From Trichoplax sp. H2 (lineage: Eukaryota): a DNA stretch of 32,876 bases. How positions within the stretch are numbered: position 1 is the first letter of the stretch; each line of letters opens with the position of its first letter. The translations under genes and the position numbers were made by a program. This document shows positions 6,001 through 26,144 of this stretch, one piece after another. The notes under the pieces were generated by a model. That model saw only the letters and a list, made by a program, of their open reading frames with translations. It was not told the origin of the DNA and did not search any database. The stretch covers positions 124,001 to 156,876 of the forward strand of contig NOWV01000184.1 of assembly GCA_003344405.1 (NCBI GenBank), read 5' to 3'.

Positions 6001-6789
6001 TTTATATAACTTTCTAAAATTTACCTCTTTACGTAATCGTGCTGTATCGTGTTCGATTTTTCCGCTTATATACAGTACTAAACTAATGTAATATAGAAAT
6101 ATTATTCACATTATACTGAAAATTTACTCTTCGTATTATCCATGACCGAATATGTGTACAGTCAATTAGTTTCTGTCAGTAAAAGATACGATATTTGAGT
6201 TGATCAATGCTGTAATCTTATTTAGCCATGATCCAGCAATTCGAACAAATCTCCTAATGTTCTACAGCAGTAAGGGCTATTATCATATATATTTATAAAC
6301 CACTCAATTTCATATTGTCAAATTATAACTAGATTTACAGTGAAAAATTTATTGTTAAGCTCAATTTATCGCTTTAATTTTTCTTCACAATGACTTCATT
6401 TTGCATTAACTACTACCACACAGTTAACATTACAAATATATTTTAAAACTACATAATCCAAAAGGTTTATAAATTCACATTGACAGGTTACATTAAGCTG
6501 CAAATAAGCAGATAGCTGTAAAGTGCGTGAAGGTAGAAAGTTCATTATTGAAACTAATAGTATTGTAGGGAGATTTGATCGTCGTTTTCAATGATGTTCA
6601 GACCATAAAATATCAATGTTACTTTCAAAGGGAAAAATCTTTTAATGTACTTTAAATTCGTTCATTAAACAGTACTACCACTCAGTTATTCAATTCTATT
6701 CACAGCTTGATGGACTTCTTTGCCGATTATGAACACTTTGTATTATAAAATCTATCTCCGCCATTCTCGCCAGGAGAAAATTTTGACTA

Positions 6790-7180
6790 AAGCTTTTCCA
6801 ATTGCTTCTAGGTGATAGTTGGTTGATGTCAAGCCAGTCAAACATTTGCGAAATTTTTTTCCAGTCAAAATCCATACGAAAACGACTTAATTCACTGAAA
6901 AGCTACGGCAGTTCTTATCAGAAAGACTGACCTTTCCTATTATTCCGCAAGTTGAAACGTTTGTAAACTCACACTTCAAGCTTTAAGCTTTTTGAATTGC
7001 TTCTAGGTGATTATCGGTTGATTTCAAGCCAGTCAAACATTTGCGTAATTTTTTTTCCAGTCAAAATCCATACGAAAACGACTTAATTCACTGAAAAGCT
7101 ACTGCAGTTCTTATCAGAAAGACTGACCTTTCCTATTATTCTGCAAGTTGAAACATTTGTAAACTCACACTTCAAGCTTC
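6790..7180. repeat. Recent tandem duplication, 2 x ~195 bp
   Basis: 6790..6984 and 6985..7180 are nearly identical (aagctttt...attgcttctaggtga...tccatacgaaaacgacttaattcactgaaaagctac...gtaaactcacacttcaagctt) with only scattered substitutions and one indel. Confidence 0.97.
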
Positions 7181-7512
7181 ATTCGCCTCCATTTTCATCT
7201 TGTAAAAAGTGAAGCTTTTGTGTCAACAGTCAACACAGCTGTGTGTCAATAACACCGATCTAATTAACAACAACTTCACTCATATTATATCAAGCGCACT
7301 CAAAGTTAAGAAATCTTCATTCAACATTTCATTGTAAAGGTGAAACGTGCATACACACTCATGCTACAAGCTTCAACCGCCAGCATTTCATCAAGTAAAA
7401 AAGTGAAGTTTGAGTGTCAATACACCTGCCTACATATAAATACTGGTCAAATTGATCATTTTTATTCATATTATGTTGTATTAAGCACACTCAAAATCAA
7501 GAAATTTACATT
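7147..7512. repeat. Older diverged tandem duplication, 2 x ~192 bp
   Basis: 7147..7321 and 7339..7512 share colinear blocks tgaaac, caagcttca, tttcatc, gtaaaaa(a)gtgaag, gtgtcaa, catattat, aagcRcactcaaa, aagaaat at an offset of about 191-194. Confidence 0.85.
7435..7442 (+). promoter_or_regulatory. Possible TATA box for the scaffold gene
   Basis: TATAAATA about 300 bp upstream of the ATG; weak evidence in AT-rich DNA. Confidence 0.2.
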
Positions 7513-7739
7513 ATTCTTCTCCTAAATTCGGTGGATAAATAGTCATTTGTTGGTAATAATTACCTAAAGATCAACTTGATACAACGTAAACATCAAGGAT
7601 TTATAATAAAAGAGTTCCAATCAACCAATACTTTCAAATTTTCAATCACCTTATTTTAATATTGGACTTGACCCCTCTGATTGAGCGAATGGTGAATTTT
7701 ATTCGAGGATTGCCCGATCTAGATAGTTAATTTATAAGT

Positions 7740-7827
7740 ATGAAAAGTATCAATCATTGGAGTGAAGAAGAAGTTGACAAATGGCTTTGTCATCATCATT
7801 TAGAAGATGTAGCCCAATCTTTTCGAG
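7740..7827 (+). CDS. Scaffold gene exon 1 (start; SAM N-terminal part)
   Basis: ATG at 7740; MKSINHWSEEEVDKWLCHHHLEDVAQSFR; donor gtagtt at 7828, phase 1. Confidence 0.85.
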
Positions 7828-10800
7828 GTAGTTGGGATTTTAACATGTTGTTGTGTACACAGATTTAATTTACTATTAATGTAAAACTAGAAATTAACTG
7901 CCGGTAAATGGTACTTCATCTAATCAGTTGACGGGCTCTATATTGATTAATCAAACGATACCTAATCATAGACGATTAAATCAAAAGTTCTCATAGTATG
8001 ATTTTTTAATCTGTATAGCTGTTATTCCTTTAATTTGAAAGTTAATAGCATACAATTTTTAAGTATTTCTATATGCATTTCAGATTACGATACGAAATTA
8101 TCAATTCTTAAAATAGCTAGAAATATTAAGTATCTGAAAGTATGTTTGTGCAAAATGGCGAAACAGCAGGAACCTTTACCTACAATCTAAATTAAGTGAC
8201 TGTTTACATATTGAAAGCATTTAGGCAATTTAAAAGTCAAAAGTTAACACCTCCATAGGAATGTTGAACCTTAGCTAGCAAATTAAATATGATACTCTTC
8301 TCTTTCGGTACTTTATTTTACTACTCTATTCAGCCATGATTTAGAAGTAATCTTCTGACTCACATTCCTTCTTTTATCATACAATAATGTGATTTTCTTC
8401 GTATTTTTCACTCATTCTAGTCATATATAGCAGTATGTCATATGATTGAGTACAATACTACAAGTTATATAACAGTATAATTCTCCTTTTAATCTATAAA
8501 ATCTATGCTTTTAGCTTAGGAAATTTCCGTATTTGCGGAAATATTAGCTTATATTACAATTACTGATAAAATGCTTTCATTATGTAGGATTTTTAAAAAT
8601 ACCGTATCACAATAAAAGTAGCTGTAATATTAAGAATCGTAGATTTAGATTCTATTTACTATATTTCCTCGAAAGCTAACTAATCCTATTAATTTCACCT
8701 AGCGTTGCATATGAATGGCCCATCACTACTTCAAATATCAAGTAATAAGCTAGGTAATTCGATTTATTTAATACATATATATCTGAAACGTTTTAAGAAA
8801 AACCCTAAAATTTACCAATATTTACTGCCAAATGATAGGTTCGATAGTTTATAGATAAAGCTATTAAAACATTCTATTGGCTAAATTAATTTAATAGAAA
8901 ATTAAAATTAATATAGAACTCTGCTTACAAATGTTTTAAATAGATCAACTTGGAGTTTCGAAACACGTACAGAACAAACTGTTTAGTCTGCTATTTCATT
9001 TACGAATAATTGAAAGTCGTGGGCAAGATTCTAGCAAAGGATCTTGCCTATCTCAAAGTATGGCTACAAGATCAAATGCTGGTTCTGCACAAGCTTCCGC
9101 CGATAGTTCACCTCAAGGTAATGTAACCTTACTCCTGACTATCGCGCTAGGTCAATGCTATTATAGGGTATTCTGATGAATACCTGCATGCATTAAATAA
9201 ATATACAGGTGCGCCAAAGATATTGTAGTATCTAAATTGAGCTTTGTAGTCAGCGTACAGATGCAAGTTTTTAAATTTACTTGTGTACGAATATCTAGCA
9301 GTTAGTATAATGCGAATTTTATAATTCTATAACTCAAAATCCCCGCAATATTATTTAATAACGACTTTATTGCTTAAAATTATACCCGTATGTAGCCAAG
9401 CTTTTATTGAAAGGATAGAAAAAATCACAACTCTCATTATTGTATTAAGATCCGCCAACAAATTCTACTAATAATCCACGTAATTAATTACAATCACATA
9501 TTCAAATTATGTAAAGACGCAGCAGCGAGATAAAATAGAACTTTTGTATGATAATTAAATTTAGTTTAGGTTTAATATTAATATTAGAAGTTACTGAGTT
9601 AATAGGAGGGTACTACCTTCCGGTTGAACCTTAATTATTACCTTGCAGGTAGCGAGTTTAAAACATCGACGTTATAGTGATTACTCCCAATTACTTACAA
9701 TCTTAAATATTTTTATATCCGATACTTAATATTTGTATGAATTCAGCTACATATTGGCCAATCTAACATGCCAAATATGCAGTCTTAAAGCAATATCTTT
9801 ATTTACTTGCAATAGAAGGAAAATAAGAACATAACTCTTATTAAAATTAGGATGTGTATAAATTTATATTGCTATCATTTTCAAAATCGGTATTCAATTT
9901 GAACCAATTTAAATTTTATACCCAATCCGCTAAGAAACAATTAAAAGTTGTACTTAATTTAAGGTTATGAGGAAAGTTAATTTGACAAAGTTACTATATT
10001 TAGCCACTATTAATAATCTTAAAAGACCAATGCACTCTCAAATACAATTGTTATACACATCTGGTATTTTCGATTTATTGTCTTCTATCATGATACTAAA
10101 ATTATCCTATACATGTGCACGATCCTTCTTCTATACTTATTTATTTTCTTTAATGATAAAACAATCACCGTCCTAATACATTTAATCTTATCAGCATCTT
10201 GTGGCGTATTTAAATTATACTAGAGATGTTCCAAATTTCCTAGTAGAAAGCTTCCAACCAATATAATCAATTGCAATATAACTATCTGCGAATATAACCC
10301 TAGATATTAATGTAACATCATGAAGATGGTTTTTGCATTTCAAATCTCACGAACAAATATGTAGTTAGATGCTGGTGTTTATAATTAGGATAATGTAAAT
10401 AAACTGTTATTATATACTATAGAATCAAAGAACTGGGTAGAATGGCAGACAAGTGCTATTTCATAACTAAACTTAAGAAAGCCTCTTTATTTCTCATATA
10501 AAAATATTGATTGCATACAATTCTTATTTACCATTTTAAAATGTCATATCCGTAAATAATGCAATTCCTTTTTGGTATATCACTATATACGTATATTTTA
10601 ATCCTGTATAGCAGCCATAATAATTTAAATTGTAAGGTTTTATACTATGACAAGGGTCCATTCTAATCGTATTTCATCTTAGTAAACCGTTCTTTGAGTG
10701 GGTATGTTTACTAGTTTACTAATATTTGTCTAGACATACAGCCAAATTATCACTGATATATTATCAGCAACAAATTCAGCATTTATTAACTCAAATATAT

Positions 10801-13800
10801 CCCTGACATTTTAGGAGCTCGTCGAAGAAATAGAAGAAGAAGTTTACCGGTAATTCCAGCTAAAGTTAACGGCAAGGTAGTAGTATAGATATATATTATA
10901 CTTATTAGCTACTATCTACGTCAGTCAATGCTTTTATTTTCGAAATCTTGACATTTTAGAAGCATAGATGTAAATAGATGACAAGAGTATGGTGCTGTAC
11001 TTAAAATCGAAATTTTCCAGTAGCTTTCCCAGTAGTTTCGAGGTAGTTGCTGCGAAATTTTTCTATATGCGCAAATATCCTCATTTGGAACGAGATAGTA
11101 AAACGTGATTTTTGTCGACATTGATTCGCACGAAATTTTTACTTTTAAAATTTACTAACTTAAATAAGGGACAGTAACTCTTCTACAATGTAGCAATGTT
11201 ACTGCTATAGCATAATGCAGCGATTATTCAACATTTTCGAAACTGAATTGTACTTTAATAAAACTAGATACTGTTAGCGGTAACGATATCGTCTGTTTTT
11301 TGGTATGCTCTCAGTCAACTGAGGCGAGATCGTCAGCTAAGCTTCCACGTGAATATCTACCTTTATTCTGATTTCTCACCACCTTATATACTGTACAATA
11401 CAGTACCTTTTACTGATCTAGTATGGAACAGAACTAGTGCCGTTAAGCTCTGATAAGGTTGCAATACAACCGATATGAATACAATACAAGAAATTCTATA
11501 ATTAGATACAGAGACGCTAGTAAATCCGTAACAGATACCATCTAAAAAAATTGTAAGTTCGATTGAACAAAATGAAGATCGTATTTCATATAACAACTTT
11601 TGACGATTTGGACTTAATATATAGACTTTTTTTATATCTTTTTGACCATGGTTAAATATATAACACATGCAATCATACTTAGATTACTGCAAAAGACGCA
11701 CGAACTTTCTTATATCTTTTTTCTTATACTTAAATGTATTATGCACATAACCATATTTAGATACTTCAAAACATTCAATTGATGATAAAGTACTTCGTGA
11801 TCATATGTGAAACTAAAATTCACCCGCCGCAAATTCCATTATCATTGCCACGAGCTACTTTACAAAATTTTAATATAATAGCATTTATCAGTCAAATGGT
11901 TAATACTATTTATGCCACGAAATTATGCTTTGAATTTGAATGCCAGGATTTTATAAAATGCATTGCCCTTTTGACTGGCATCGTTCGACATCTAACGACC
12001 ATGCAGTAGTGATTTTACCAACGCCAATTAGTAAGCTCTTAACCGTAATTCTTAACCTTAAATGTTATTGACTTTAAAATTTTACAACTACCGTTTTTCC
12101 AGACAGACATTAATATTTGTTTAAATATTAACAGCAGACATACACATTAACACTGATAACGTCGTTGATCACTTCATTACTTGCGTGCTTTCATAAAAGT
12201 GTTTTTATTAATCACCATTAAATACAAAGAATATTTATATCTTTTATGTCTGTAAAACTATACACGTTGCTATATGGAAACCTAAGCATGATTATGTTTG
12301 CTGTTGATATTGATATAACGAATCTTATGATATTACGGGCAGCTTTTGTACTGTACTTTAAATCAGGCCTTGCGGATATTACATTGTCTCACAAATACCC
12401 TCACACCTACCCGAAAGCGAAATTCTTAAAAGTATACACCTGAATTTCGCTTAATGAATAATCCACCAACCATAATGACAATAACAAATCATACATCTAT
12501 ATTGCATTAACACATTGCAAGTTAGAAAAATACGCGAAAGAATAATATTTAGTTATAACAAAATCTTTGTTCGAGTTAAGTAAATAAATACCTCTATAAA
12601 TTTGAGGAGTCATTGTGCCGAATAAAGATGCCATGATAGCGATATGCCATGAAGACTCAATTTATAAGAAAAATAGTCATATAATAAGTTTAATATTGTA
12701 AGAATAATTATATTTATAAACCTGAAAATAGCGCTAGGATCGTTTAAGTACAATGACATTGTAAGTTCGCTATTGTAATCCAGCTATAACATCATCCATT
12801 CTAGACGTTATCGGCTTCAATAATATAGTTTATACACACGCAGAATCTGTACGATTAAGAGGTTTCATACTGATAATGATTTTGTTAGTTATATGTGTAC
12901 CACTAGTAGAACATAGTTTTTTGTATCTTGCTAAGAACGTGAATTAGCGAACTCTTTAAAGAGAGCTTCTAAGTAGTAATTAGAATAAGTATTGTGTATA
13001 GAACTAAGAAAGTAATTGGATTTGGTTATTACACCATTACATTGAGTGAGCATTTAATTCGATTAAATAGTGAAATTTCAAACTCCGGTAATGGTAATTG
13101 CTCTTTTGGATATTTATTCGAAATCTGCTTATCCTGGATATATTCAATTTAACGCTTTCATTTTAATGTTACTTCATTCATTTCAACTAGCATTGATACT
13201 ATCTAGATATGATCAATATTTTATCAATATGATCTAATTGTCATAGTTATTTTTAGGTTAGACTAGTTTCATATTGGGTTCAATAATTCAAGAGAAGTAG
13301 CCTTAGTAGCCTTTCAGAAACTAGCACAAACATATCTAGTAGAAATAAATTTCTTGTTGTAGATTATGACTCGTGTAATATTGAGATGGTATAGTTATCG
13401 TACAGTAACCTATAAGCCGTTATAAGAAAGTTAAGAAACATTAAAATACTAAGTAACCGCAACAATTGAAACCTGAAGCAGGAATCAGTGGTATTTATAG
13501 CTTTGGGAATAGAACACATGAGGAGACTGTAGGAGGAACGTCGACAATCATTCTTGCTATCGTGAATGTACAGACTACTACAGAGTAATATTAGATACAA
13601 TACAGTAAAATATACGATTGAAATCGCGACGAACTAGGATCTAAACCTTCATGTAATAAAATGTACACGTACAATACACATAAGGGAGACCGTCAGCAAT
13701 GCGACGGGGATGTTGCTAGTAATTTACTGTAATAAATTGTAACTTCAGTCATTTCTGCTATAAGTAATTCATTGCAATCGTCATAAATAAATATTAAATT

Positions 13801-16800
13801 CGGCAAATTTAGTCATTTAATTCTTCATGAAAATTCATACCTTGACAAATACATATAAGAAAACTAGTGAATTCCCTGATATCATTAATTTATGTCATAC
13901 TTATTTTCGCTCACACAACAATAAACCAACATAAAATCAGAGCTAAGGACAATTAGAGCTTAATGTCTGAGTTTAATCAAAATAATTGCTGATTTTTCTA
14001 AGTCATAAACGTCATCTAGTACATTATTTAACTACTATAGTACGGTACTGGTACTTAGCCTGTTGCAGCTTAATACATAATAGCTCAAGCAGCATAATTA
14101 CTAAATTACTAGTTTCCTTAATTCAATAACTTAAAAGCAATTCTATGCGTATAATAATAGAGTGCGTCTTCTTTTTAACTAGCTATCACTATCTGCTGTA
14201 GTCAAATTCAAAGTTGATTCGCTTTTGATATTAGGTAACTAAATCCTTTACTTTAAGTTTAAGCTTTCATTAAACACAGTCTTCAACTTGGCATGGTGAA
14301 CCCACTGCTATTTTTTTCGGACTAAAAACATCTATCGAAAACTGTTTCCTATATGTAGGAGATGACATTCATATCATCGATATACTTCAACTTTACAATA
14401 GAATCCTATACATAATTCGTGTATTTGCTTGCTTCTTATTGTATTATTTACGCACTGTGTCTAATGCCTCATTAGCAAGAGTCGCCGATAATTACTCCAT
14501 TGGCTAACAAATTTAACTTCAGTATTAACCCATCACTTATTTTTATTTTCGGAAACCGTTACGATTTTTTCGAGAATTTTTACCCTAAAGTCATAAGCTA
14601 TTTACTGGGCTACTATTTTAATCAGTTGTGATTACATTAAGTAGAAATATAAGCTTCGTAAGATTTAGGCCTTATACTGAAGTAGGATGCTTACTGATTA
14701 CACTGTGTGTAATCTACTACTCTAATTAATCAGGAAGGGGTAGAACCATCAATCCTTTTACCTAGATCCCTCATGTATTTCCATTCGTAAATGTATTATA
14801 TACGTACGCGTAGATATGTCACATTAAGATTCTTGTTCTCAATACTTGTGGATTCGCTATGGTTTTCATCCTATTATGATCCTATGTGATAATATACGTA
14901 GTACATTTCATCATGCTATACTCGTGAAGTTGCTTGCCGTAGTATAATCAAGAATAATCATACTACTCATAGACGATCGGTATGGAATGAAAAGTTTTAA
15001 TTAATTTGTCTTATGCAAACATCCATTTTTTCATAAAACAAGATACAAATCTGCGCTTGCTGTCTTTGAATAGATGCATAACACTACCTTCAACAATCTT
15101 AACCAAAGCGTCATTAAGCATATTATATTATCTCAATAGTATATTACATCATCCGTTTTGATTATTCGCGAATTAATCCGGCATACTTCATCTCTGCTGT
15201 TACACATTTGTAAGGTAGTGATATCAACACTTGTATAATATTAATATTTGTTTTTTCTTCGTCGTGCTCATAATGGCTGTTAAAGTGAAACGTTTACTAT
15301 GCGGAGACCTCTTGCGCATGTGTTACTTATAAAAATGAAGTGGTATCGTATTAAATATCATTTTACGTCCAACATATATAATGAATGTGTAATAGAAATA
15401 TTTATGGCTAAGCGGAAGCAGGACAGTAATATATACTAATTACCAATATGGGTAATAGCATTAATATTTACTAAAGAATAGCAGCAAAGCAGGTTAATAA
15501 ATTACTTATTATTATTCCTTCATTGAAGGTGATGACATTGGAAATAGAATTCTATAGCTAATAATAGCGGTTATAAATTTTCTTGCTAAATCAATAAATA
15601 GAAAGCCATTAATGTTTAATGATATTCATTTTAACCATTAGACAATTAGTTTCCTTAGTTCTATAATTCGCATCAAAATATCTTGCCGGCATTCGTGTTT
15701 ACATAATGTTTGAACTGATATTACAAATGGTTTTCTTAGTTCTGAAATAGCAGCCAATTCATAATATAAATATCGCTTCGAAATTTTTCTGATCGGAGTT
15801 GTGCTAGGATCCAAATTGAAATAAGCACCCTGAAATTAGGATACATCATGATAAAATCTTTGCAAGCATAAGTAATTCGTATCCAAATATCCTGCAGGAA
15901 TTTGCGTTTACATAATGTTTCAACTGATATTCTAATCTTATAAAAGCACAATTTATTTACTTCGCACACAACCGCTGAAACAATTTAAATTTTGAGTTTT
16001 ATCTATATACATACTAATTTACAGTGTTTTTTAGTGCGCTATTCATCTGGTTGTTAATTACTTTCATCTACAGTTGACAATAGGTTATTCGTTGCTGCCA
16101 TCTTGCTGTTTATATTTGCTCTTGCAACATAAAGTAATTGGCTAAATTAAATATTTTAATTATCCTAATAATAATAAATAATAGTAATCGTTGCTAATTA
16201 ATAAAATCTTTACGTGATGTACAATCCAGATACGTAATAAGCATAGCAATTATATTAGATATTATTTAATAGAATTTTGAATTTGATATCAAATAATGGT
16301 TACTTCCTTATAGCATTATTACACTACTATCGCTATTGAAATTGATGTTGCTGATAATTATAATTATAAGCAATCTTTTATCACGGTAACTGTTATCATT
16401 AAATTATGAAATGTTAGAAATTTCTAATACCCAGAGTAGTTGGAATTATCAGTTTAGTTATTGGCTGGTCGTAGATAATTAATTAATAATCCTTCAGTGT
16501 TAATTTTTTTACTCAGTCTATGTCAATCAAACATGGTATGTCAACTGAATATCGCCTACTAGTAGACAGTGTCTCCCCTGAAGTATCTAATTAAAACTAT
16601 AAAGGCATAACCAAGATATCATTACTGTTCTCTAACCCACCCCAAATTTTATCACTATCTTATTAATCAATCTATTTATACCTATCTTTCAATATACGTT
16701 ACACGAAAGATGGAATATACGCCCCTGTCCATCCGTATTGATACGAAAATACTCTTTCAAAACGATCAAATAATAAACCTGATTGTTGGTAGTAAAACTA

Positions 16801-19800
16801 CAAGGTAAGCTCACTTGAAATGTAACCTTAAATCTCATTTTACGATCTTTAGTGTACATTGTTTGACAGAATCATCAAATATTATCGTGATATTGCCTAG
16901 TTTTATTAGCATAATTCAACTTCTACGATAGAAAAGTCATATCGGTACGATACTCCATTTAACGAACGTTACTACTTATTTCTGATAAATATCAAAATGA
17001 GGTACGCTTTCGTATCTCAACAGCGATTAGTAATTGTAACAGCATCAACTTTGCCTCATCATACTAAAAATAGTGTTATTTTAAGAGCCTTCTTTACCTA
17101 CTTAGACATTTCTTATTTAATAGAATATTCTTAACTACAGGCTATAAACAATAGAATCTTACAGAATAAATATAGTAGCTCCTTGTATCATAAGCAAATG
17201 ATCGTGAAAGATACGTACCGCTATTAGTCGTAGCAATAACACTACTCTAGTTTACTCTCTAACACATATGAAAGTATCATTGTAATGACTTATAAATTAC
17301 TTTGAACTACCAATATAGTCTTCAACATATACTGGAATATAAGTAATTCCATTTATTACCAGCTTCAACTAGTCTTAAATGCTTCAAAATATTTAAAAAT
17401 TCCGATTCTATGGCCTAAAGATAACTAAATGGATTTATTAGCTGTCATAGCAAATCTAGCAAAATCGAAATCATACATATTAACTATAGTATGTTGTCAA
17501 AGTTATTGTGCCCCTTGCATGGGTACTAATATTATAATTATAGACTATAAGCAACCATGTATTCCAAGTTAATGCGAAATTCCATATTAACAGAAAACAC
17601 AATATGTGTAAATTATAGGGAATTTTATAATTTATTATATCCACTGAACTTTATTATAGATATTAGTACAGTTATAAGTTGAAAACAAGAACAATGGCGT
17701 TCCATAACTGCATGCAATAGTACTAACCGATATCTCATCGTAATAATCAAATGCGTAACTGAGTTTGTGTCGTACATTATAAATAATAATGTTTTAGTTA
17801 ATAATATTTAGTTGTATTATAGAGATCCAATACCAATGATTATAGTCTCAAAGCAGAAATATGATTGCTTAGTATGGTCATCAGACAAATATACAAGTTT
17901 TATAAATTATTGTTGCTCATCAAGCATTTTAAATCAATTAAAATTTTTCTAATTCGTAACAACAGCATCTATGTCATTTCCTTCAAAGTTTTTACGGATT
18001 AAAACTTATGATAACATTAAAGGGTCATTGTAAGATCTAGCTTACTGTACTTCGATTAAATTCGGTCTCTTTGCTATAGTTCACAAGACACTATCCTGTA
18101 TCACAATAATGATAGCCGATATAGTATAGTCTTCAAATTTCTAAGGTTTATTAAACCGCTATGCAAAATGCGTTTTGGAGGTCAGTCGTAGAATTATTTC
18201 TCCGCTCTATAAGAACAGCTGAAAGTGACTAAGATAAACCGGATAATTATCCTTAGCTACTTAAGACTTTACAATCTCTATACAAATTTCTATATTATTC
18301 GACGGTACCAAGTACTTCTATCTCGAGTATTGTTTTACTAATAATCACTGACGAAATCTAGCAGAGGCGCTACAGTCATACAAGCGCCGAAAGAAGTATG
18401 AGATAAATCATCTCAAATATATAAAAGTCAATATCGTACTAATCAAGATACTTAGGCGAAAGAAAATACTATCTCAAATTTACAATACTCTAATCCACTT
18501 AACGGTAAACTTTAGATGTATAAAATACTAATATATAGATATTAACTTTACCAATATTGAAACTGCAGACCTACTACACTTTTCGGACTTTAAATGCAAT
18601 ATATGCAACATTAATCTTTACTGAATTAAAATAACGCGCTTTTATTTAAACAAAAAAGATCGCATACTCGCTATTTTGTGGATTAATATTCGAAATATCC
18701 TAAAGATATTGATCCTAATTCAGGTTACTCCTATCGTACTAAATACCCACTGTAAAATTATAAATGCTTATTTCATGTCAGATAAGTGACTGAAGTCATA
18801 TTACGAGGCATCTGCACTTATGAATACCCCTATACCTATATTGCTTCAGGCACCATTGTAATATCTGCAGATGATTATGTACAGATTAGATGCGATATTA
18901 CTAAGTTGAAAAACGATAATTTATTTTATTATTATTGCATTTTATAGCAAGGACGTCGTTAATATGGTCATGAAAGAGTATACCGTAAATACGAGGGACA
19001 TTAATTTATACTACTTAAAAATGGAAGTTAAGCAGCAAGAAGATGGTAAGAGCAATTTTAGAAGCGCATCAACTGAACTAGCAACATATTGTTTACAACT
19101 TGCTAAACTTGCATTCTGCGAATAGAGTAAATTCTTTTCCAACTTCAGCTAGACATCCATTAACTAAATTAAATCGACTTGTATGAATTAGTTCAAAAAT
19201 TCTAGTATTCATAAGTAACATCTTGAAATACTTCAAAATTTTTTGTTGCAGACGAAAGTCGCTTTAAAAAGCCTAATATTTGAAAATCTTTAAAATCTTA
19301 TACGAAAAGTTCTAGTTAAAGATCTATCGACTTTTCTTGCATAGTAACCTTTATAAGATATGTTCTGTGTTCGTCAATTTAAATACGTTATCTTAAATAA
19401 GCTAAAAGTAATTACATCTTAGCGTACATAAAAGTCGCCAGTACAAGCATGTCAATAATAATTATAAAGCCGTGGTAATAAACGAATTAGTGAAAGTGAA
19501 AAGTGAAAACATATTACAGGATTTTTATCACAGTAGGTTTTGTAACAAATTTTTAACTAGAAATATTATATTTGCATTTAAACAGCGGAACTTAAGTTGA
19601 TATCTCTCGAAAATGATAGCTTAATATTAGAAATTTTATCTACTACGGCCCATGCAAAGCCTTCGTAAGTAATGTTAAGATTGAAAACTATTGCTGAAAT
19701 TTTAAGAGCTTCTAAACATGATTCTGAGTTGAATATTTGAAGGTTTTGATATTGACCGACGTATATAATTTTTCTATCTAGCTTTCAGTTAGCGGTAAAA

Positions 19801-22800
19801 GAAGGAAAATTAATTAAAATTTATGGTTATGTTCTAGCACCGGAGGTAGTTTGCATTTGTAACTGAATGGATTATGATTTTAATTAGTTAGATAAGCTAA
19901 TGTCTAAATGTCGACCTATATACTTCTTATAATTACTATTATCTGGTGTTCGCACTTAAGCTCCAATTTCTTGTGACTTATAGATGCAGATAATAATCTG
20001 AAATTCTAACATTTCGTATGATCTTTAATCAGTTAAATATTACCGTTGTTCTAATCTACTACACGTATGGCGAGAGTAGCTTGATTGAGTGCCTTTAATT
20101 CTTCCGCACGTACAGCTTAGAGTTATGCCTGTTTAATGAACATATTACCAGTATATTGACGGAATTTACAAATCTTTTCCTATATCAGCTACTGCTTTTC
20201 ACATAAGTATTATAATAATACGTAGTTTCTACAGTTGCTTAAACTTATACGGTATTACGTTGATTAAGTTTGATTGCTCTATATCTTTTGATTCGAATTA
20301 ATACTTTTAAGCCGTCTTGTTTTCTGATCTTTCTTATTAACAAAAGGCTGATTATAAAACCTTAATCGTATCTGAAGAAACGAAGGCTTATAATGTTGTT
20401 CGAATGGTTCTGGCGTCGTATAAATCCAATGAAAGCCCCAATCACTTTTGTTTACATGAAGTATCACAAAAGCATCGCAGTATGTAGAATTGTACTGAAT
20501 TACAATCTGAAATTCAAATTTAGTAACGTTATATAGCTTAGCACAATTGCATAATCAAGACGACACAAATATAGATTTGATATCATTTCTCTTATTTATA
20601 GTTGATAGAATAATTATGGATGATGAATGTCCAGTAGCCATTCAAGATATATGGGGCAAAAGCGCGAACGCTACCTTACATCTTTGTCGTAAAGCATATG
20701 ATTTTGATCAAGTAAATTACGTAACATAGAATCTTCCTCACTTAAAAGAATTTTAAAAGTATACATGTATTTTTCATTCTAGCTATTCCATGTTACTACA
20801 TCCTATAATGTTTGGTGTTGCACAATTACTTTAATTTTCTTAACAATAAATGCTCTAAGTGGTTGAGTAAGCTTAACAGATATCCAATATTCTTAGGGAA
20901 AATATCAACCTGATAATTCGGATGGTGCAAACTTACAATTGTTAAGAAGAGCACGACTAGCAAGGCCGCCAAAGATTTCATCTAATGCAAAAAGCGCTTC
21001 TGTAAGTTCGTTTACAAGATGCTTTACGTATAATTAAATTTAAAATTTATCCTATTACTTTACCGAATTTACGTTATCTGGCATTAAATAAGAGCATATA
21101 TACAGGAAGAAAATACAGTTCAACTTTATAATTATAAAGAACTATGCTTAATAGGCAGTAATGTGTTCATATTTGAAAATATATTTCTAAATTTTATACT
21201 ATAATTGCTAAAATCCACGCTATCGATAATCACAAATTTTCTAATGTGAATAATCAATCAAAAACCAAATCAGACACATAACCATGAAACAGAAGAATCT
21301 TAGCTTTTGTACGCCTTATTATAACGCCTGTACAACATGAACCGTATAGTGTGTTGCAAAGATTGTTAGTCGACTTCTATTTTATCGGCATAAATTATCT
21401 TCTAACAGTTGCAAGATTAAATAATTAACACTCGATGGTACATTGTTCTAATTAGTGAGACGACAGTTTGAGCTATTACCATACAAGTTGAAATTTTTTC
21501 TATGATCTATTAGCGTATCTAACAAATTTTAAAATGTATGCACTTAAATTCAAGATTGATTATGACGGGTTTGAAAGCAATGGCGGCAGCAGCTCTAATC
21601 AGAGCTCGATTATCTATAGAAATCCCCGTTCTGAGAAAAGATGCAGAAGATGTTCTGAGCAATTCCATGATAAAGTTTTCAAGAAAATCGTTACCGGTAT
21701 TCAAGATATAACTCTCGCTACTACTCATACAAACAACGATGGTGATAGTGGATATCAAGTCAGCGGTCAGTGTACACCAGTCTCAAGCTCAACAACATCG
21801 CCTTGTGCAGGCTCTTTAGCAAATGTTAGTATTGATACCTTAGATTTGGGAAGTTGCGGAGAAGATGATCGTCAACCGGTAAGTTGGCGACTATTTATGT
21901 GTTAAATTTGCTATGGTATGTAAAATTTAAACTGGTATTTTAAAAACTGTAAGTAAACGAAAATCTGTAAATTTAAGTGTATAATATATTAAATATGCCA
22001 AAACAAGTAAGTTTATACTTTTTACTACTACCGGTACTGTTCTTAATAATGATAGAGTAAATGACTTCCTGACATTCTCCAGCTAAAATCATATTAAATC
22101 TTAATAGGAGGTCTTCGATATCACTAATGCCGCAATAATTATTGATCCTCCTCCCGAATTTGCCACATCTATTAATCAACAATTAGACGGAGACGATTTG
22201 AAAAATCAAACCCCAAAAATTATTGAGACAGTCACAATTAACTCAGCTGAGACTGAAAACCTTAAACAAAATGATATTAACCAACTTCATGAAGTCACTA
22301 AAAGCCGTCAAAAAACTGAAAATGATGTTGTCGAAGGAAATAAACTGCTATGTCCTCCACAAGCTAGTCTTCCTGCTCCGATACGTAAAATGTCACTCAA
22401 TTCTCTTTTAGGTATTAAAATATAACTTTGTTATCGCCCTACTTAAAATCGTTATTATTTTATTAAATCGCTCTATTATGGAGTACTCGATAGCTGCACA
22501 TAATGTACTGTATGTACCTTCTACGAACTATACTCTTTCATGTTGATGTTGTGTACTCGTGCAATTTTTAAAGGAAGCAAAAGAGCTATAGAATAACTTA
22601 ACTTTGAACTTTATCCTGTATTTTCTGATTGTAAATAGATATGAAGAAAGCAGAAAACAAAGATGCCAAATTCAATGAAACTTTATCTGTTGGATCGCAA
22701 ACTAAAGTAACAATGATTATATATATTATTGCAACACTTGCTCGTTGTTTTTGACACAGTAATTTATGATGGATTTCGCTCCATCGATCTAGATGTACAT

Positions 22801-24270
22801 AGCCTATGGTCACTTTACGTTCTACTGCCTATTATTTCATCTAATAGTTAATAGTAGAACTAATAGAATGATAAGTATCAATTTTGATAAGTGTCGTACT
22901 AAAATTACTTGCTTACAGAAGATGATTTAGATTATTGCCTCTTATAAATAAATAAATTTAGGGATTATTTACTTATTGATTAATGGCTTCCATTTGAGAT
23001 CTTATGCATTGCTTCATATTAATATTTTCATTAACAGCCACTTAATGCTATGGAACTACTGATGACGTCGCAGCTAACCTTAAATTTGCATAGTATTTTG
23101 GGTCAACGTCGTCATTTCCTGGCTATAACAATATTACAACATCAATATAATCATCAACAGCAACAAGAATCAAACATTGTTGGAATTGAATTTTGCCAGA
23201 AATCGAGTAGTGACGTTGATTCATATTCTTTGAGACGCGGTATTTATATCACCAAAATTGATGAAAATGGAGTTATAGGTAGAGATGGTCAGTTACTAGT
23301 TGGTGATGAAATTGTAGAAGTAAGTACTATGAAAAGATTATCATATAAGTATAAATATCTTTTTCATAGTAGTGTACAACTGAGCAAATTATCGAAATTC
23401 ATAGGTTTTATATCTAGATAGAACTAAAATGAATCTGGTTAATTATATATGACCATTACCAATCCTTTCAAACTGCTTAGGTTAATGGCGAGTTTGTTAT
23501 GGCTACTTCTATAAAAGTAGTCGAAGATACATTTAATGCCGCTATATCTCATTTGGGGTTGTTAGAACTTGTTATATCCCGGGAAATGAACTTTAAAACT
23601 AACTATGCGTCGCATATATCAAATTTAGAAGATCACAATGTAAATACTGTTGTTGATGAGGTCCGTTGCAGTAAAGTAAATGCAGACTAGTTAAAAGACT
23701 TCTTTTATAATTAAGTTATTTAAAATAAATTTTTCTCATGCACTAAAATTAAAGATCTCAACTAATTATCATTAATTTGTACCTATAAGTACAATATCTG
23801 TAGTTTGTAACTTTGTCTTGTTGCCTTATTCAAAGTAAAAATCTACGTATCTCTGTATCGACACCATCTTATTTATAATTTTCTTTAGACTGATTATAAC
23901 TTTTATATATAAGTAAATATCTCTTTAGACCACGTAAAACTAAAAATATTTCGTGATTATTTTATTTTCGGGAATGATTTGGTAATCGCTGCAGCAAATA
24001 AAGAATTTGGAGAGCACTCTTAGTGATTCGCAAGACGAAAAGCGAATGTTGCAGCTGAAAATAAAAATGTTAGATTTGCAACTACAACATGCCGAAATGG
24101 AGATTGAAAAGAAAAATCGCGAAATAGCCAAGATGCGCTTATCTAATTCTAATCATAAAAACTCTTTATCGAAGCGAAACTACCAAGTAAGTAAGAGAAG
24201 CTCGATTAAAAGATCAGCCAGAGATAAGAAAATGGCACCGACCGGATCAGATGAAAATTTGCTGCAATGA
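7740..24270 (+). CDS. SAM + tandem Ras-association (RA-RA) + PDZ + coiled-coil scaffold protein, about 830 aa, 17 exons (Rau-like RA module)
   Basis: join(7740..7827,8703..8753,8944..9117,10815..10876,16710..16804,18948..19045,19586..19664,19782..19845,20347..20479,20602..20711,20897..21001,21555..21878,22108..22411,22639..22706,23038..23319,23481..23660,23995..24270). All introns are GT-AG, all phases match, 2493 nt with no internal stop. SAM: WSEEEVDKWL...MNGPSLLQIS...LGV. RA1: GSKTTSKDVVNMVMKEY...NLYYLKMEV. RA2: YKTLIVSEETKAYNVVRMVL...FCLHEV...DDECPVAIQDIW. PDZ: GIYITKIDENGVIGRDGQLLVGDEIVEVNG...LELVISR. The SAM-to-RA join and the extreme C-terminus are least certain. Confidence 0.85.
8703..8753 (+). 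CDS. Scaffold gene exon 2 (SAM)
   Basis: cctag acceptor; (A)LHMNGPSLLQISSNKL; donor gtaatt. Confidence 0.85.
8944..9117 (+). CDS. Scaffold gene exon 3 (SAM C-terminal helix and Ser-rich linker)
   Basis: aatag acceptor; (D)QLGVSKHVQNKLFSLLFHLR...SSPQ; donor gtaatg. Confidence 0.85.
10815..10876 (+). CDS. Scaffold gene exon 4 (basic, proline-motif linker)
   Basis: ttttag acceptor; (G)ARRRNRRRSLPVIPAKVNGK; donor gtagta; phase 1 in, phase 0 out. Confidence 0.75.
15664..15931. repeat. Diverged ~59-bp direct repeat pair in intron 4
   Basis: 15664..15722 and 15873..15931 (offset 209) share taattcgYatcMaaatatcYtgc...gtttacataatgtttSaactgatatt. Confidence 0.85.
16710..16804 (+). CDS. Scaffold gene exon 5 (start of RA1)
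   Basis: aag acceptor; MEYTPLSIRIDTKILFQNDQIINLIVGSKTT; donor gtaagc. Confidence 0.8.
18948..19045 (+). CDS. Scaffold gene exon 6 (RA1)
   Basis: ttatag acceptor; (S)KDVVNMVMKEYTVNTRDINLYYLKMEVKQQED; donor gtaaga. Confidence 0.88.
19586..19664 (+). CDS. Scaffold gene exon 7 (RA1)
   Basis: aacag acceptor; (A)ELKLISLENDSLILEILSTTAHAKP; donor gtaagt. Confidence 0.85.
19782..19845 (+). CDS. Scaffold gene exon 8 (RA1/RA2 junction)
   Basis: tctag acceptor; (S)FQLAVKEGKLIKIYGYVLAPE; donor gtagtt. Confidence 0.87.
20347..20479 (+). CDS. Scaffold gene exon 9 (RA2)
   Basis: aaag acceptor; ADYKTLIVSEETKAYNVVRMVLASYKSNESPNHFCLHEVSQKHR; donor gtatgt. Confidence 0.9.
20602..20711 (+). CDS. Scaffold gene exon 10 (end of RA2)
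   Basis: ttatag acceptor; (I)DRIIMDDECPVAIQDIWGKSANATLHLCRKAYDFDQ; donor gtaaat; overlaps track ORF 20547..20729. Confidence 0.9.
20897..21001 (+). CDS. Scaffold gene exon 11 (linker)
   Basis: cttag acceptor; GKYQPDNSDGANLQLLRRARLARPPKISSNAKSAS; donor gtaagt. Confidence 0.85.
21555..21878 (+). CDS. Scaffold gene exon 12 (Ser/Thr-rich linker)
   Basis: caag acceptor; IDYDGFES...GEDDRQP; donor gtaagt; inside track ORF 21534..21905. Confidence 0.85.
22108..22411 (+). CDS. Scaffold gene exon 13 (linker with DPPPEF)
   Basis: aatag acceptor; EVFDITNAAIIIDPPPEF...RKMSLNSLL; donor gtatta; same frame as track ORF 22198..22425. Confidence 0.85.
22639..22706 (+). CDS. Scaffold gene exon 14
   Basis: aatag acceptor; (D)MKKAENKDAKFNETLSVGSQTK; donor gtaaca; supplies the needed phase 1 to 0 change. 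Confidence 0.75.
23038..23319 (+). CDS. Scaffold gene exon 15 (PDZ, first part)
   Basis: aacag acceptor; PLNAMELL...IVGIEF...GIYITKIDENGVIGRDGQLLVGDEIVE; donor gtaagt. Confidence 0.92.
23481..23660 (+). CDS. Scaffold gene exon 16 (PDZ, second part)
   Basis: cttag acceptor; VNGEFVMATSIKVVEDTFNAAISHLGLLELVISR...VVDE; donor gtccgt. Confidence 0.88.
23995..24270 (+). CDS. Scaffold gene exon 17 (coiled coil; TGA stop)
   Basis: tgcag acceptor; QIKNLESTLSDSQDEKRMLQLKIKMLDLQLQHAEMEIEKKNREIAKMR shows a heptad pattern; 3' end ambiguous because of internal donors at 24187 and 24191. Confidence 0.78.
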   Translation, partial: QIKNLESTLSDSQDEKRMLQLKIKMLDLQLQHAEMEIEKKNREIAKMRLSNSNHKNSLSKRNYQVSKRSSIKRSARDKKMAPTGSDENLLQ

Positions 24271-26113
24271 TCCTGATGGATAGATTATCAAGTGACTGTC
24301 GAAGCCGAAGAACTAAATGATTTTCAATGGTTCGATACAAATGTGAATTAATAATTACTATCGTATCATGCTTTCTACTCTGAGTGCTGCATTGTTAAGA
24401 CAAGACAGCAGGACAGCACTACCTGTAGCAGAGTACATTGATTTATAACAAAGTTATGATAGACTGTCCTCCTCTTTCATTTACATAAAATTGATCCGAA
24501 ATAAATTAGGTATTATAAACACTAAGCGTCTAATTACCAATAAGAAATTTGTCCTAACTAAATTGATTCGTCGCTATTATTATTGAAAAATAAAGCAAAA
24601 ATCTAAATGTGCCTCTTAAAAGAAATGTAAAAGAAATTAACTTTATCATAGAATTTAACCTGTTTTATATCATTACTGCATAAAATTAAGCTATTTCGTT
24701 CTTTCTAACAACAATTATATCAAAATTTAAAGATTTACTTACATTTTTGCATGTAAATTTGTTATTGGGCTAATTCTTCAATGCTATTTTATATGTTGTT
24801 TCATTAGATATCATTGTACTTTTGTAACAGTTCAATGTCAACAGCGAAGCTGCAATAATTTATTAGAATATTACTAGCGAAAATGTAAGATAAAGAGCAA
24901 TGTTTATTTGTACGCACTACTGTATGGAAGTCTTTGACTTAGGAAGCAAAATTTTTACAATTTATTAGATACGATTGCTATTACTATGCCACTTTCTGTC
25001 TAAATTTACTATCCTAAAGCCAAAGAATAGTATTCGCGATTAGACAGTACCAGTAATATCATATATGAATACTCCACTTTTGGTGCAATAATGTGATAGG
25101 CAGTAGAATACTATACGCGTACGCGTATATATTAGTATTGTATCGAATTTATTAAGCTGTAATAGCCTACGCTGATTGCATTTTGCTGCAATTAGTTGTT
25201 TAGTAACCTAAAATGATTTGATATTTGAAAGAAGTCTACAGGGATAGTATTAGCACCGCTATACTTATGATATTCCGACATTATCGTTCAGAAATTAATA
25301 AAACGTATCATTTGAGGCATTAACATCATGTTGTTTTACCTATTTCGATTACTAATGTATGTAAAGGAAACCTCTAGAATCTATGTGGTTGGTGTAATGC
25401 TAGCTAGAGATTGTAAAGAAGCTTTCCAATTAAAGTGTTTACTGCTTCAATACAAATGATGCAGTTCATTAAAGGGAGACTAGATGCTATATGCCTACAG
25501 CAATTCCGAACTGCATTAAAATTTGGAGCTAAACATGTATGCACATGGAAGAAATTTTATAGTGTAAAACGATATTACTGTCAAAAATTATTTAATCGGT
25601 TGAAGCAATCAAGTCAAGAAGTATCTTTAATATTAAAAGTTATTCAGCCACATCAAATCAATTACTAGCATATTGCAATACAAGTCTCATTTTATTAGTA
25701 TACAGCATAACTTATTGACGTAACACCACATACAAGTAGCATTTGTTTCAATAATCGAAATATAGTACCAATATAGCACAACATACTAGTTTGATTATAT
25801 AGAATATTTTCGTAGGGAGATAAGCGTATAATATAACTAACTATATAAAATACTATAATTTTAACAATTTCTAAATGGTGTTGACATTTTTACTAGGCGG
25901 TAGTACATATTTTATTATTATTATTATACTCCGTTATCGTATCAGTAAACATGAATTTTCATGTCAAGTACGTGTGATATCACTAATTTACGTGGCAGAC
26001 ACGCTAATATAGGAATATGCGTAGTGTAAATTACTACTGCCAGCGAGTTTACACGGAGCATTAGCATAGAGTGAATTACTAGTTCCAGTATATTCACGCG
26101 AAGCCTTGACAAT

Positions 26114-26144
26114 TTATGATCCATGGTCAACATTAATTCGATAT
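26114..26144 (-). CDS. SEC14-like coding exon 16 (TAA stop)
   Basis: (K)YRINVDHGS*; ctatag acceptor. Confidence 0.85.

What the first reader, a model, noticed from the sequence alone, without database searches (positions are those of the whole stretch)
7740..24270. SAM-RA-RA-PDZ-coiled-coil protein: an unfamiliar Ras/Rap-effector scaffold architecture
Seen: 17 phase-compatible exons encode SAM, two abutting RA domains, a long linker, a PDZ and a coiled coil. Known: RA domains bind Ras-family GTPases; afadin has RA-RA-FHA-DIL-PDZ; CNK has SAM-CRIC-PDZ-PH; Drosophila Rau is described as a two-RA protein acting in RTK feedback. From memory, the pattern TTSKDVV...RDxNLYYLxMEV...GxLIKIYxxVL...YKTLIVSExT matches Rau-type RA pairs. 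Inference: this may be a fuller, possibly ancestral Rau-family scaffold linking Ras/Rap to PDZ ligands and SAM partners. I know of no vertebrate protein with this domain order.
Basis: partly seen in the sequence, partly recalled or inferred. Interest (0 to 1): 0.75.

Follow-up and report, generated by a model that had tools for sequence, protein, structure and literature searches.

The report
Placozoan SAM–RA–RA–PDZ relative of Rau
This is a real, expressed 17-exon gene of a placozoan that encodes a long, five-part form of the fly Ras-binding protein Rau, which suggests that the short insect protein descends from a larger early-animal signalling scaffold.

Summary
Seventeen GT..AG exons (ATG 7740, stop ending at 24270) give one 2493-nt, 830-aa frame. 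Spliced RNA contigs from four studies carry the junctions. The doubted 10876|16710 junction is in 4 of 4 runs, and one 3109-nt contig has exactly the length of 5'UTR + whole CDS + 32 nt.

The DNA is placozoan. The public model TRIADDRAFT_54230 (668 aa) lacks the first 162 residues: the SAM domain and the start of RA1.

The architecture is SAM (Aveugle/SAMD12-like), two abutting RA domains, a roughly 300-aa disordered linker, a PDZ domain and a parallel dimeric coiled coil.

The same order occurs in Nematostella and Oscarella proteins. RA-RA-PDZ forms without a detected SAM occur in hemichordates and an annelid; a flatworm protein has RA plus a locally detected PDZ. The other best relatives are short arthropod proteins that NCBI names "rau".

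The Rau-family reading is therefore supported. Ras/Rap binding, SAM partners and PDZ ligands remain inferred. No chordate appeared among the 15 organisms I could name. This is a new variant of a known kind, of moderate interest.

The parts
6790..7179 (.). Tandem duplication (196 bp x 2.0, 94% matches) at the transcript's 5' end
   Evidence: RNA contigs begin at 7112 or 7156.
7156..7739 (+). 5'UTR part of exon 1 (at least 584 nt)
   Evidence: Contigs 7156-7825 in X5 and X7. In-frame stop at 7728-7730.
7740..7827 (+). Exon 1 coding part, aa 1-29: start of the SAM domain
   Evidence: Pfam SAM_1 E=0.015 on this exon alone. Aligns with the Nematostella and Oscarella SAM. GT donor.
8703..8753 (+). 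Exon 2, aa 30-46: middle of the SAM domain
   Evidence: The only frame-keeping AG acceptor in 8600-8750. Junction 8753|8944 in 4 of 4 runs. Junction 7827|8703 rests on contig-length arithmetic only.
8944..9117 (+). Exon 3, aa 47-104: last SAM helices, then a Ser/Ala-rich linker
10815..10876 (+). Exon 4, aa 105-125: basic stretch RRRNRRRSLP
   Evidence: Junctions 9117|10815 and 10876|16710 in 4 of 4 runs.
10877..16709 (+). Intron 4 (5833 nt), the longest; it holds a dispersed repeat at 11272-11534
16710..16804 (+). Exon 5, aa 126-157: RA1 first strands
18948..19045 (+). Exon 6, aa 157-189: RA1 helix and the RDINLYYLKMEV motif. The public model starts here, at MVMKEY.
19586..19664 (+). Exon 7, aa 190-216: end of RA1
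   Evidence: (3 of 4 runs).
19782..19845 (+). Exon 8, aa 216-237: RA1/RA2 boundary and RA2 first strand (GKLIKIYGYVL)
   Evidence: (3 of 4 runs).
20347..20479 (+). Exon 9, aa 238-281: RA2 core (DYKTLIVSEETKAYNVV)
   Evidence: Pfam RA E=9.6e-7 on the reading frame holding this exon (20341-20484) alone..
20602..20711 (+). Exon 10, aa 282-318: end of RA2
20897..21001 (+). Exon 11, aa 319-353: linker
   Evidence: pLDDT below 60.
21555..21878 (+). Exon 12, aa 354-461: disordered linker with the motifs RRCSEQFHDKVF and SIDTLDL
22108..22411 (+). Exon 13, aa 462-562: disordered linker
22639..22706 (+). Exon 14, aa 563-585: linker
23038..23319 (+). Exon 15, aa 586-679: first half of the PDZ domain (IVGIEF loop, GIYITKIDENG, GDEIVEV)
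   Evidence: Pfam PDZ. All 19 PDB sequence hits are PDZ proteins..
23481..23660 (+). Exon 16, aa 680-739: second half of the PDZ domain
23995..24270 (+). Exon 17 coding part, aa 740-830 plus stop: coiled coil (about aa 740-790), then a basic Ser-rich tail
   Evidence: Helix with pLDDT 83-94. Parallel dimer score 0.58 against best control 0.01.
24271..25316 (+). 3'UTR (contig continuous to about 25316)
   Evidence: X8 record 15 covers 23995-25316. Contigs cannot show the true end.

Best explanation
The interval holds one expressed placozoan gene of 17 exons encoding an 830-aa protein. Its parts, in order, are: a SAM domain (about aa 3-70, closest to the Aveugle/SAMD12 type); a short basic linker; two directly abutting RA domains (about 127-219 and 220-318); a roughly 300-aa disordered linker; a PDZ domain (about 640-725); and a parallel dimeric coiled coil (about 740-790).

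It is the long form of the Rau family, whose characterised member is Drosophila Rau/CG8965. That protein has two RA domains and is described as a Ras-GTPase-binding promoter of FGFR signalling.

The likely mechanism is inferred, not shown. GTP-loaded Ras or Rap at the membrane is bound mainly by RA2, which keeps the canonical YKT strand. RA1 of this species has lost that lysine. The coiled coil makes the protein a dimer. The PDZ domain ties it to C-terminal tails of membrane or junction proteins. The SAM domain couples it to other SAM proteins of the Ras pathway, with a CNK-type partner as the obvious candidate. The result would be a scaffold that holds active Ras/Rap at receptor complexes and sustains signalling.

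Shown here: the gene model, its transcription and splicing, the domain identities, family membership and the predicted dimer. Inferred: every binding partner and the signalling role.
For: Gene and transcript; 4 of 4 runs join 10876|16710, and the 3109-nt contig equals 5'UTR + CDS + 32 nt.

SAM: exon 1 alone gives Pfam SAM_1 E=0.015. The N-terminus aligns colinearly with Nematostella X1 and Oscarella. It scores 33.8 bits, with 0 of 2000 shuffles reaching that. A profile of those two orthologues hits solved SAM domains: SAMD12 at 5.1e-6 and Aveugle at 3.3e-4, then SARM1, SHANK3, DGK-delta and CNK1.

RA: Pfam RA 1.4e-15. RA1 scores 58.8 bits and RA2 97.5 bits against models built from 80 relatives. 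The AlphaFold model has pLDDT above 90 over RA2. Foldseek matches PLC-epsilon RA-HRas (1.2e-5), Rasip1 RA-Rap1B and afadin RA.

PDZ.

Coiled coil: helix. Dimer score 0.58 against best control 0.01, a mark reached by 21 of 30 proteins solved as pairs of one chain and 0 of 23 solved as single chains. The runs agree in at least 100% of contacts and partner pLDDT is at least 85.

Family.

Against: No binding was tested.

Pfam does not formally pass the SAM domain (exon 1: 16.1 bits against 23; Nematostella SAM_2: 19.5 against 20.5). It does not quite pass the Trichoplax PDZ either (23.1 against 23.2).

The PDZ part of the model has only pLDDT 55-69.

Trichoplax RA1 has Ile where most aligned relatives have the Lys or Arg of the YKT strand, so one of the two RA domains may not bind a GTPase.

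The tree separates long PDZ forms from short Rau forms (SH-aLRT 94), but the long branches are flagged as unreliable.

The dimer pass may reflect the model's memory of coiled coils in general.

Three of the four RNA runs are RNA only by guess, and no DNA run was laid to exclude a retrocopy.

The primary Rau paper (Sieglitz et al. 2013) is not held. I saw only citations of it and other authors' one-line summaries.
Confidence: 0.7

Rival explanations
1. The long PDZ-bearing proteins and the short MLKH...FYI Rau proteins are ancient paralogues. On this reading the window's gene is sister to Rau, not its orthologue, and says little about Rau's ancestor.
For: The tree of 81 RA-pair rows puts 8 long-form rows on one side and 73 short forms on the other, with SH-aLRT 94. 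The 8 are seven PDZ-bearing proteins plus Tubulanus P0085, which has no detected PDZ.
Against: Among the 15 named organisms, none has both forms. Short forms are arthropod or tardigrade; long forms are non-bilaterian, hemichordate, annelid, flatworm and nemertean. The hemichordate long forms begin with MLKHCT like the arthropod short forms. All long forms have long end branches (1.5-2.8), which the tool warns can group falsely. The unnamed MLKHC clade looks arthropod in the Atlas.
Confidence: 0.15
2. The RA pair is a ubiquitin-like module that no longer binds, or never bound, Ras-family GTPases. The protein would then be a PDZ/SAM scaffold unrelated to Ras signalling.
For: Trichoplax RA1 lacks the KVY and YKT motifs that most relatives keep. 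Foldseek also finds talin F0F1, FERM and ISG15-type double ubiquitin-like folds at 1e-3 to 1e-4.
Against: RA2 keeps the K of IKIY, the YKT strand and a basic first helix. The best structural matches are RA domains solved in complex with HRas or Rap1B. The fly relative is described as Ras-binding (PMC4390571 and PMC2405789, passages).
Confidence: 0.15
3. It is a divergent afadin/RADIL-type protein (RA ... PDZ) rather than a Rau relative.
For: A profile of the orthologues hits the afadin RA domain (4.9e-7) and the RADIL RA domain (2.8e-5) as the closest solved RA sequences. Afadin also combines two RA domains with a PDZ.
Against: Pfam finds no FHA or DIL domain, and the interval between RA2 and PDZ is modelled as disordered. 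Three afadin-length hits (P0091, P0109, P0123) match RA2 only, at about 1e-8 to 1e-9, whereas Rau-type proteins align over both RA domains at 1e-15 to 1e-17.
Confidence: 0.05
4. The SAM exons belong to a separate upstream gene, and the long transcript is a read-through or assembly chimera.
For: The 5833-nt intron 4 is much the longest. The public model omits exons 1-5 and starts within exon 6. No public protein over 100 aa containing exon 3 was found.
Against: The 10876|16710 junction is GT..AG, in frame and present in contigs of 4 of 4 runs from 4 studies. Nematostella isoform X1 and the Oscarella protein have the same SAM in front of the same RA pair.
Confidence: 0.03

Closest known systems
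Drosophila Rau (CG8965) and the arthropod proteins NCBI names 'RA domain-containing protein rau'
   Same: Two directly abutting RA domains align colinearly over about 190 residues. They share the motifs (K/R)DPNLYY..ME, F.L..R.G.L(V/I)K(I/V) and YK(S/T)L..S..TT. Presumed Ras effector.
   Different: The named arthropod forms are 230-825 aa. They have no SAM, PDZ or coiled coil detected. They mostly begin MLKH and end (D/N)YEN(Y/C)FYI. The window's protein has neither terminus. I did not see the D. melanogaster sequence itself.
Uncharacterised Nematostella LOC5517974 isoform X1 (951 aa) and Oscarella pearsei EP00118_P018905 (1104 aa)
   Same: Same order: SAM, RA, RA, long linker, PDZ, coiled coil. 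The cnidarian linker shares two short motifs with Trichoplax.
   Different: The Nematostella PDZ has an insert of about 130 aa after its second strand, and the Oscarella coiled coil is about 350 aa. Identity over the RA pair is at most about 30%, the highest value being to Glandiceps.
Afadin/Canoe (RA-RA-FHA-DIL-PDZ) and RADIL/Rasip1
   Same: RA domains plus a PDZ. These are the closest solved RA sequences and folds.
   Different: No FHA or DIL domain. The RA domains abut. A SAM domain sits in front and a coiled coil behind.
Aveugle/Hyphen and SAMD12 (SAM-only adaptors), and CNK (SAM-CRIC-PDZ-PH)
   Same: The SAM profile of the orthologues scores best with SAMD12 and Aveugle, and CNK1 SAM also appears at 0.016. 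CNK likewise combines a SAM and a PDZ in a Ras-pathway scaffold.
   Different: No CRIC or PH domain, and not a single-domain protein. That Aveugle pairs with the CNK SAM is recalled, not from a call.
SHANK (Ras-association-like SPN, ANK, SH3, PDZ, SAM)
   Same: Another scaffold that combines a Ras/Rap-binding ubiquitin-like domain, a PDZ and a SAM. SHANK3 SAM appears among the profile hits at 0.005.
   Different: The order is reversed, ANK and SH3 are present, and there is a single RA-like domain. This is an analogy only. The SPN-Ras link is recalled; PMC6090658 was seen only in a search listing.

Membership tests
Rau family (tandem-RA proteins of the Drosophila Rau/CG8965 type) | Two abutting RA domains that align colinearly with family members over both domains | tested here: met
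   80 of the 150 listed hits cover both RA domains. RA1 scores 58.8 bits and RA2 97.5 bits against models of 80 relatives, with 0 of 2000 shuffles reaching either. Alignment.
Rau family (tandem-RA proteins of the Drosophila Rau/CG8965 type) | Nearest relatives outside its own phylum include proteins named rau | tested here: met
   Halyomorpha P0162 and the tick P0167-P0178 are named 'rau' by NCBI, and their representatives score 1.3e-16 and 4.0e-16. The reverse search, Rau against the placozoan proteome, could not be run.
Rau family (tandem-RA proteins of the Drosophila Rau/CG8965 type) | N-terminal MLKH and C-terminal (D/N)YEN(Y/C)FYI, as in the arthropod members | tested here: not met
   The protein starts MKSINHW and ends ENLLQ. 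There is no MLK(H/Y) exon in the gene. These termini mark 51 and 40 of the 80 both-RA hits and look like subfamily traits rather than family traits.
Rau family (tandem-RA proteins of the Drosophila Rau/CG8965 type) | GTP-dependent binding of Ras and promotion of RTK signalling | not testable with these tools
   No Ras sequence of this organism was on hand. The function is known to me only from passages in PMC7595039, PMC4390571 and PMC2405789.
Afadin/Canoe | FHA and DIL domains between the RA pair and the PDZ | tested here: not met
   Pfam on P0001 finds only RA and PDZ. Residues 150-490 of the model have pLDDT mostly below 50.
CNK | CRIC and PH domains beside the SAM and PDZ | tested here: not met
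   Neither appears in Pfam scans of the reading frames that hold 10 of the 17 exons, of P0001 or of the orthologues.
SAM domain | Significant match to SAM profiles or solved SAM domains | tested here: met
   Direct Pfam scores fall below the cut-offs (16.1 against 23; orthologue 19.5 against 20.5). The two-orthologue profile hits 9 different solved SAM proteins at E of 0.02 or better, the best at 5.1e-6. The Trichoplax N-terminus matches that pair at 33.8 bits. For Trichoplax itself the link is transitive.
PDZ domain | Match to PDZ profiles, with a carboxylate-binding loop | tested here: met
   Pfam PDZ gives 23.1 bits against a cut-off of 23.2. All 19 PDB hits are PDZ proteins. It scores 30.0 bits against 6 orthologue PDZ domains, 4 of which pass Pfam's cut-off and 2 of which do not (P0015 has 23.4 against 23.2, Oscarella 19.5). 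The loop reads IVGI in the sequence. Fold confidence is only 55-69.

The most novel reading that the evidence does not exclude
SAM-RA-RA-PDZ-coiled coil is the ancestral animal form of the Rau family. It would be a dimeric Ras/Rap effector that, through an Aveugle-type SAM, plugs directly into the CNK/KSR scaffold, and through its PDZ into receptor tails. Bilaterians then dismantled it stepwise: the SAM went first, then the PDZ and coiled coil in arthropods, which gained a PDZ-ligand-like FYI tail. Vertebrates lost it altogether. It would then be an early-animal Ras feedback module with no vertebrate counterpart.
Probability: 0.3. Interest if true: 0.65.

Novelty: new variant of a known kind. 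Interest (0 to 1): 0.45.

Why it matters
Rau is one of the few positive-feedback Ras effectors described in flies, and the papers I could read say nothing about its origin. A five-module form conserved in sponge, cnidarian and placozoan gives a concrete picture of its origin. It names three untested interaction surfaces (SAM, PDZ, coiled coil) that the fly protein lacks. It also offers a simple organism in which to ask how Ras signals were anchored in early animals.

The work corrects a public gene model that misses 162 N-terminal residues, including a whole domain. The gain is evolutionary and annotational. No new biochemical principle is shown.

Tried and rejected
- No whole genome is held for this window, so own-genome searches were impossible.
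- The word-index search with P0001 found only P0001 itself. With SAM exon 3 it found no protein over 100 aa. Both are weak negatives.
- The joined 830-aa protein could not be given to the Pfam, PDB or folding tools. SAM and RA1 of Trichoplax were therefore tested through orthologue profiles in scripts.
- Adding exon fragments as rows to an alignment misplaced exon 3, and that alignment (A1) was dropped.
- I looked for an alternative MLKH first exon in the gene and found none; the only MLKY in the window, at 27533, runs straight into stops.
- The RNA-covered segment 11272-11534 in intron 4 was considered as a cassette exon and rejected. It has no splice sites, loose ends on both sides and many mismatches.
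- Flanking reading frames (1-7100 and 24300-32876) showed nothing protein-like by composition and were not pursued.
- No tRNA or Rfam family lies in the window.
- Earlier-findings look-ups returned nothing.
- The primary Rau paper is not held. 'Rau' in PMC10605237 and PMC7017232 was a false lead with 0 whole-word matches.
- Literature searches for TRIADDRAFT_54230 (0 papers), CG8965 (4 papers), Rau with Sprouty, glia and FGF (11 papers), Rau with RA domains and Trichoplax with Ras association, PDZ and SAM turned up no description of this architecture. Supplements were closed and were not consulted.
- Parts of the stretch without RNA cover in single runs are not used as evidence.
Full report
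WHAT IS THERE. The window is AT-rich (about 30% G+C) and no prokaryotic genome is held for it. The RA2 exon finds NCBI's 'uncharacterized protein TRIADDRAFT_54230 [Trichoplax adhaerens]' (P0001, 668 aa) at 98% identity. tblastn lays P0001 on the window in 13 pieces (12 exons), each 92-100% identical apart from boundary effects. The DNA is therefore placozoan and close, but not identical, to the reference strain.

GENE MODEL. Joining 17 intervals from 7740 to 24270 gives a single frame of 2493 nt and 830 aa, with GT at all 16 donors. The 15 acceptors the script printed are AG. Exon 2's acceptor came from an AG scan, and 8703 is the only one in 8600-8750 that keeps the frame open. A stop codon sits three codons upstream of the ATG.

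I found 17 public runs holding part of the locus. I laid contigs of four of them, from four studies, on 6000-25500. One is on record as RNA. Three are guessed to be RNA, and their word shares of 0.37-0.39 fit exon-only content. Fifteen GT..AG junctions are listed: 10 are in 4 of 4 runs and 5 in 3 of 4.

One contig (X7, record 9) is 3109 nt and runs from 7156 to 24302. That equals 584 nt of 5'UTR, plus 2493 nt of CDS, plus 32 nt. Its internal coordinates fit exons 2-8 exactly. The 7827|8703 junction was not in the printed part of the table and rests on this arithmetic. Contigs cannot show strand, ends or level, and I laid no DNA run as a control.

The public model begins at MVMKEY inside exon 6. 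It lacks the first 162 residues: the SAM domain, the basic linker and the first strands of RA1. A search with SAM exon 3 found no public protein over 100 aa that contains it, which is a weak negative.

DOMAINS. I could not hand the joined protein to the library tools. I therefore tested pieces by reference and the rest through orthologues.

RA2 and PDZ are seen directly. Pfam gives RA at 1.4e-15 and PDZ at 9.5e-5, the latter 23.1 bits against a cut-off of 23.2. All 19 PDB sequence hits are PDZ proteins.

An AlphaFold model of P0001 with a 43-row alignment has these confidences:
- The RA region has pLDDT above 90.
- Residues 150-490 are mostly below 50, so that stretch is modelled as a disordered linker.
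- The PDZ reaches only 55-69.
- An 85-residue C-terminal helix has 83-94.

Foldseek places the RA part on PLC-epsilon RA with HRas (1.2e-5), Rasip1 RA with Rap1B, afadin RA, RADIL, Grb14 and RIAM.

For the SAM, exon 1 alone gives SAM_1 at E=0.015. The first 75 residues align without trouble to the N-termini of Nematostella isoform X1 and the Oscarella protein. They score 33.8 bits against a model trained on those two only, where the best of 2000 shuffles scores 6.6. A profile of those two proteins hits solved SAM domains: SAMD12 5.1e-6, Aveugle 3.3e-4, then SARM1, SHANK3, DGK-delta and CNK1.

RA1 scores 58.8 bits and RA2 97.5 bits against models of 80 relatives. The PDZ scores 30.0 bits against six orthologue PDZ domains.

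Two copies of the first 60 residues of exon 17 are predicted to form an in-register parallel dimer with heptad-spaced contacts. The score is 0.58 against a best control of 0.01. That mark was reached by 21 of 30 proteins solved as pairs of one chain and 0 of 23 solved as single chains. The runs agree in at least 100% of contacts and partner pLDDT is at least 85. The tool warns that such a pass may come from memory of similar structures.

RELATIVES. HMMER with P0001 against 1.84 billion representatives gave 301 hits at E of 1e-3 or better, of which 150 were listed. Of the 150:
- 107 match the RA-pair region, and 80 of these cover both RA domains in one alignment.
- 43 have no RA match; two are placozoan fragments and most of the rest match the PDZ region several times over.

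Of the 80, 51 begin ML(K/R)(H/Y) and 40 end in an FYI-like tail.

I looked up 30 hits and 15 carry an organism name.
- Long forms on which Pfam finds RA and PDZ: Actinostola and Nematostella (Cnidaria), Oscarella (Porifera), Glandiceps and Saccoglossus (Hemichordata) and Owenia (Annelida).
- Long-form-clade members without a Pfam PDZ: Macrostomum (flatworm), where Pfam finds one RA only and a local phmmer flags a PDZ, and a 407-aa Tubulanus (nemertean) protein with no PDZ detected.
- Short forms with RA-RA only: insects, ticks, decapods and a tardigrade. The Halyomorpha and tick proteins are named 'RA domain-containing protein rau'.

The unnamed MLKHC clade comes from environmental assemblies. 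Its nearest Atlas clusters are mostly arthropod. No named hit is a chordate. Half of the look-ups had no name, so absence from chordates is not shown. PMC4390571 states, without detail, that rau has mouse and human homologues.

A SAM was found only in the three non-bilaterian lineages with complete N-termini. The hemichordate long forms start MLKHCT, like arthropod Rau.

A quick IQ-TREE of 81 RA-pair rows puts the eight long-form rows on one side (SH-aLRT 94). It also flags all of them as long branches whose placement is unsure. I left out near-identical cluster members and rows that did not cover both RA domains; Saccoglossus fell out on that filter.

HOW IT PROBABLY WORKS. Rau/CG8965 is described as having two RA domains and as a candidate Ras effector, placed in an interactome module with ksr, cnk, Rap and Cno (PMC2405789, passage). 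It is called a Ras-GTPase-binding protein (PMC4390571, passage) and a promoter of FGFR signalling opposite Sprouty (PMC7595039, passage). The primary paper is not held.

By homology, the Trichoplax RA pair should bind GTP-loaded Ras or Rap. RA2 keeps the K of the first strand, the YKT strand and a basic helix. RA1 has RID for KVY and Ile for the YKT lysine, unlike most of the 12 relatives aligned. RA2 is therefore the better candidate. The role of that lysine in Ras contact is recalled from RalGDS-type RA domains, not tested here.

The other three modules would make the protein a dimeric scaffold: the coiled coil through dimerisation, the PDZ through peptide tails, and the SAM, most like Aveugle/SAMD12, through partners such as CNK in my recollection. 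All partner assignments are inference.

COMPARISON AND NOVELTY. The protein passes the structural tests for the Rau family. It fails the arthropod-specific termini. It fails the defining FHA/DIL of afadin and the CRIC/PH of CNK.

The five-module order is present in public predicted proteins of Nematostella and Oscarella, all 'uncharacterized'. Seven literature searches found no description of it (and for architecture terms). Supplements were closed.

I rate it a new variant of a known kind. What remains open is biochemical function, orthology against paralogy, and whether chordates truly lack it.

Noticed in passing
window 6790-7179: A 196-bp unit repeated twice (94% matches) lies exactly where the transcript contigs begin (7112 or 7156). 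RNA depth is highest in this bin. It could be a duplicated promoter or 5' leader.
   Followed up: no
window 11272-11534 (intron 4): A 262-nt segment is covered by RNA contigs in 4 of 4 runs at 90-99% identity, with unrelated loose ends on both sides and no splice signals. It looks like a dispersed repeat that is transcribed at other loci.
   Followed up: partly
window 31000-32876: G+C rises to 0.37-0.45, and the end of the window (32193-32788) is filled with CTGTA-based arrays with periods of 5, 27, 42-44 and 263.
   Followed up: no
window 21555-21878 (exon 12; aa 385-396 and 445-451): The disordered linker carries two short motifs, RRCSEQFHDKVF and SIDTLDL, that recur in the Nematostella and Actinostola linkers (RRVSQIDRFRNKF; S(L/I)DALDL). 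One unrelated PDZ protein also matched the second pattern, so chance is not excluded.
   Followed up: partly
related proteins P0005-P0142 (arthropod Rau forms): Of 80 both-RA hits, 51 start ML(K/R)(H/Y) and 40 end in (D/N)YEN(Y/C)FYI-like tails. The tail looks like a hydrophobic PDZ ligand in just those lineages that lack the PDZ. The Owenia and Macrostomum long forms end in -SAV and Nematostella in -ILV.
   Followed up: partly
P0001 versus window 7740-18963: The public model TRIADDRAFT_54230 omits exons 1-5 and the start of exon 6 (162 residues). It differs from the window at a few residues (for example W/L, H/R, I/T), so the window is a close but different strain or haplotype.
   Followed up: yes
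window 24228-25500: RNA word depth over the 3'UTR is about twice that over the coding exons in runs X6 and X8. Contigs also break at 24302/24304 and 24677/24679. A second transcript or an alternative 3' end may overlap here.
   Followed up: no
window 7648 and 10314: In runs X6 and X7, contigs leave the locus at 7648 (inside the 5'UTR) and at 10314 (intron 3) into sequence not found in the window. These may be alternative splicing to distant exons, or repeats.
   Followed up: partly
P0002 (119 aa) and P0004 (106 aa): Two short database proteins match only linker exons 12 and 13, at 81% and 48% identity. They look like fragmentary models from other placozoans and show how fast the linker evolves.
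   Followed up: no
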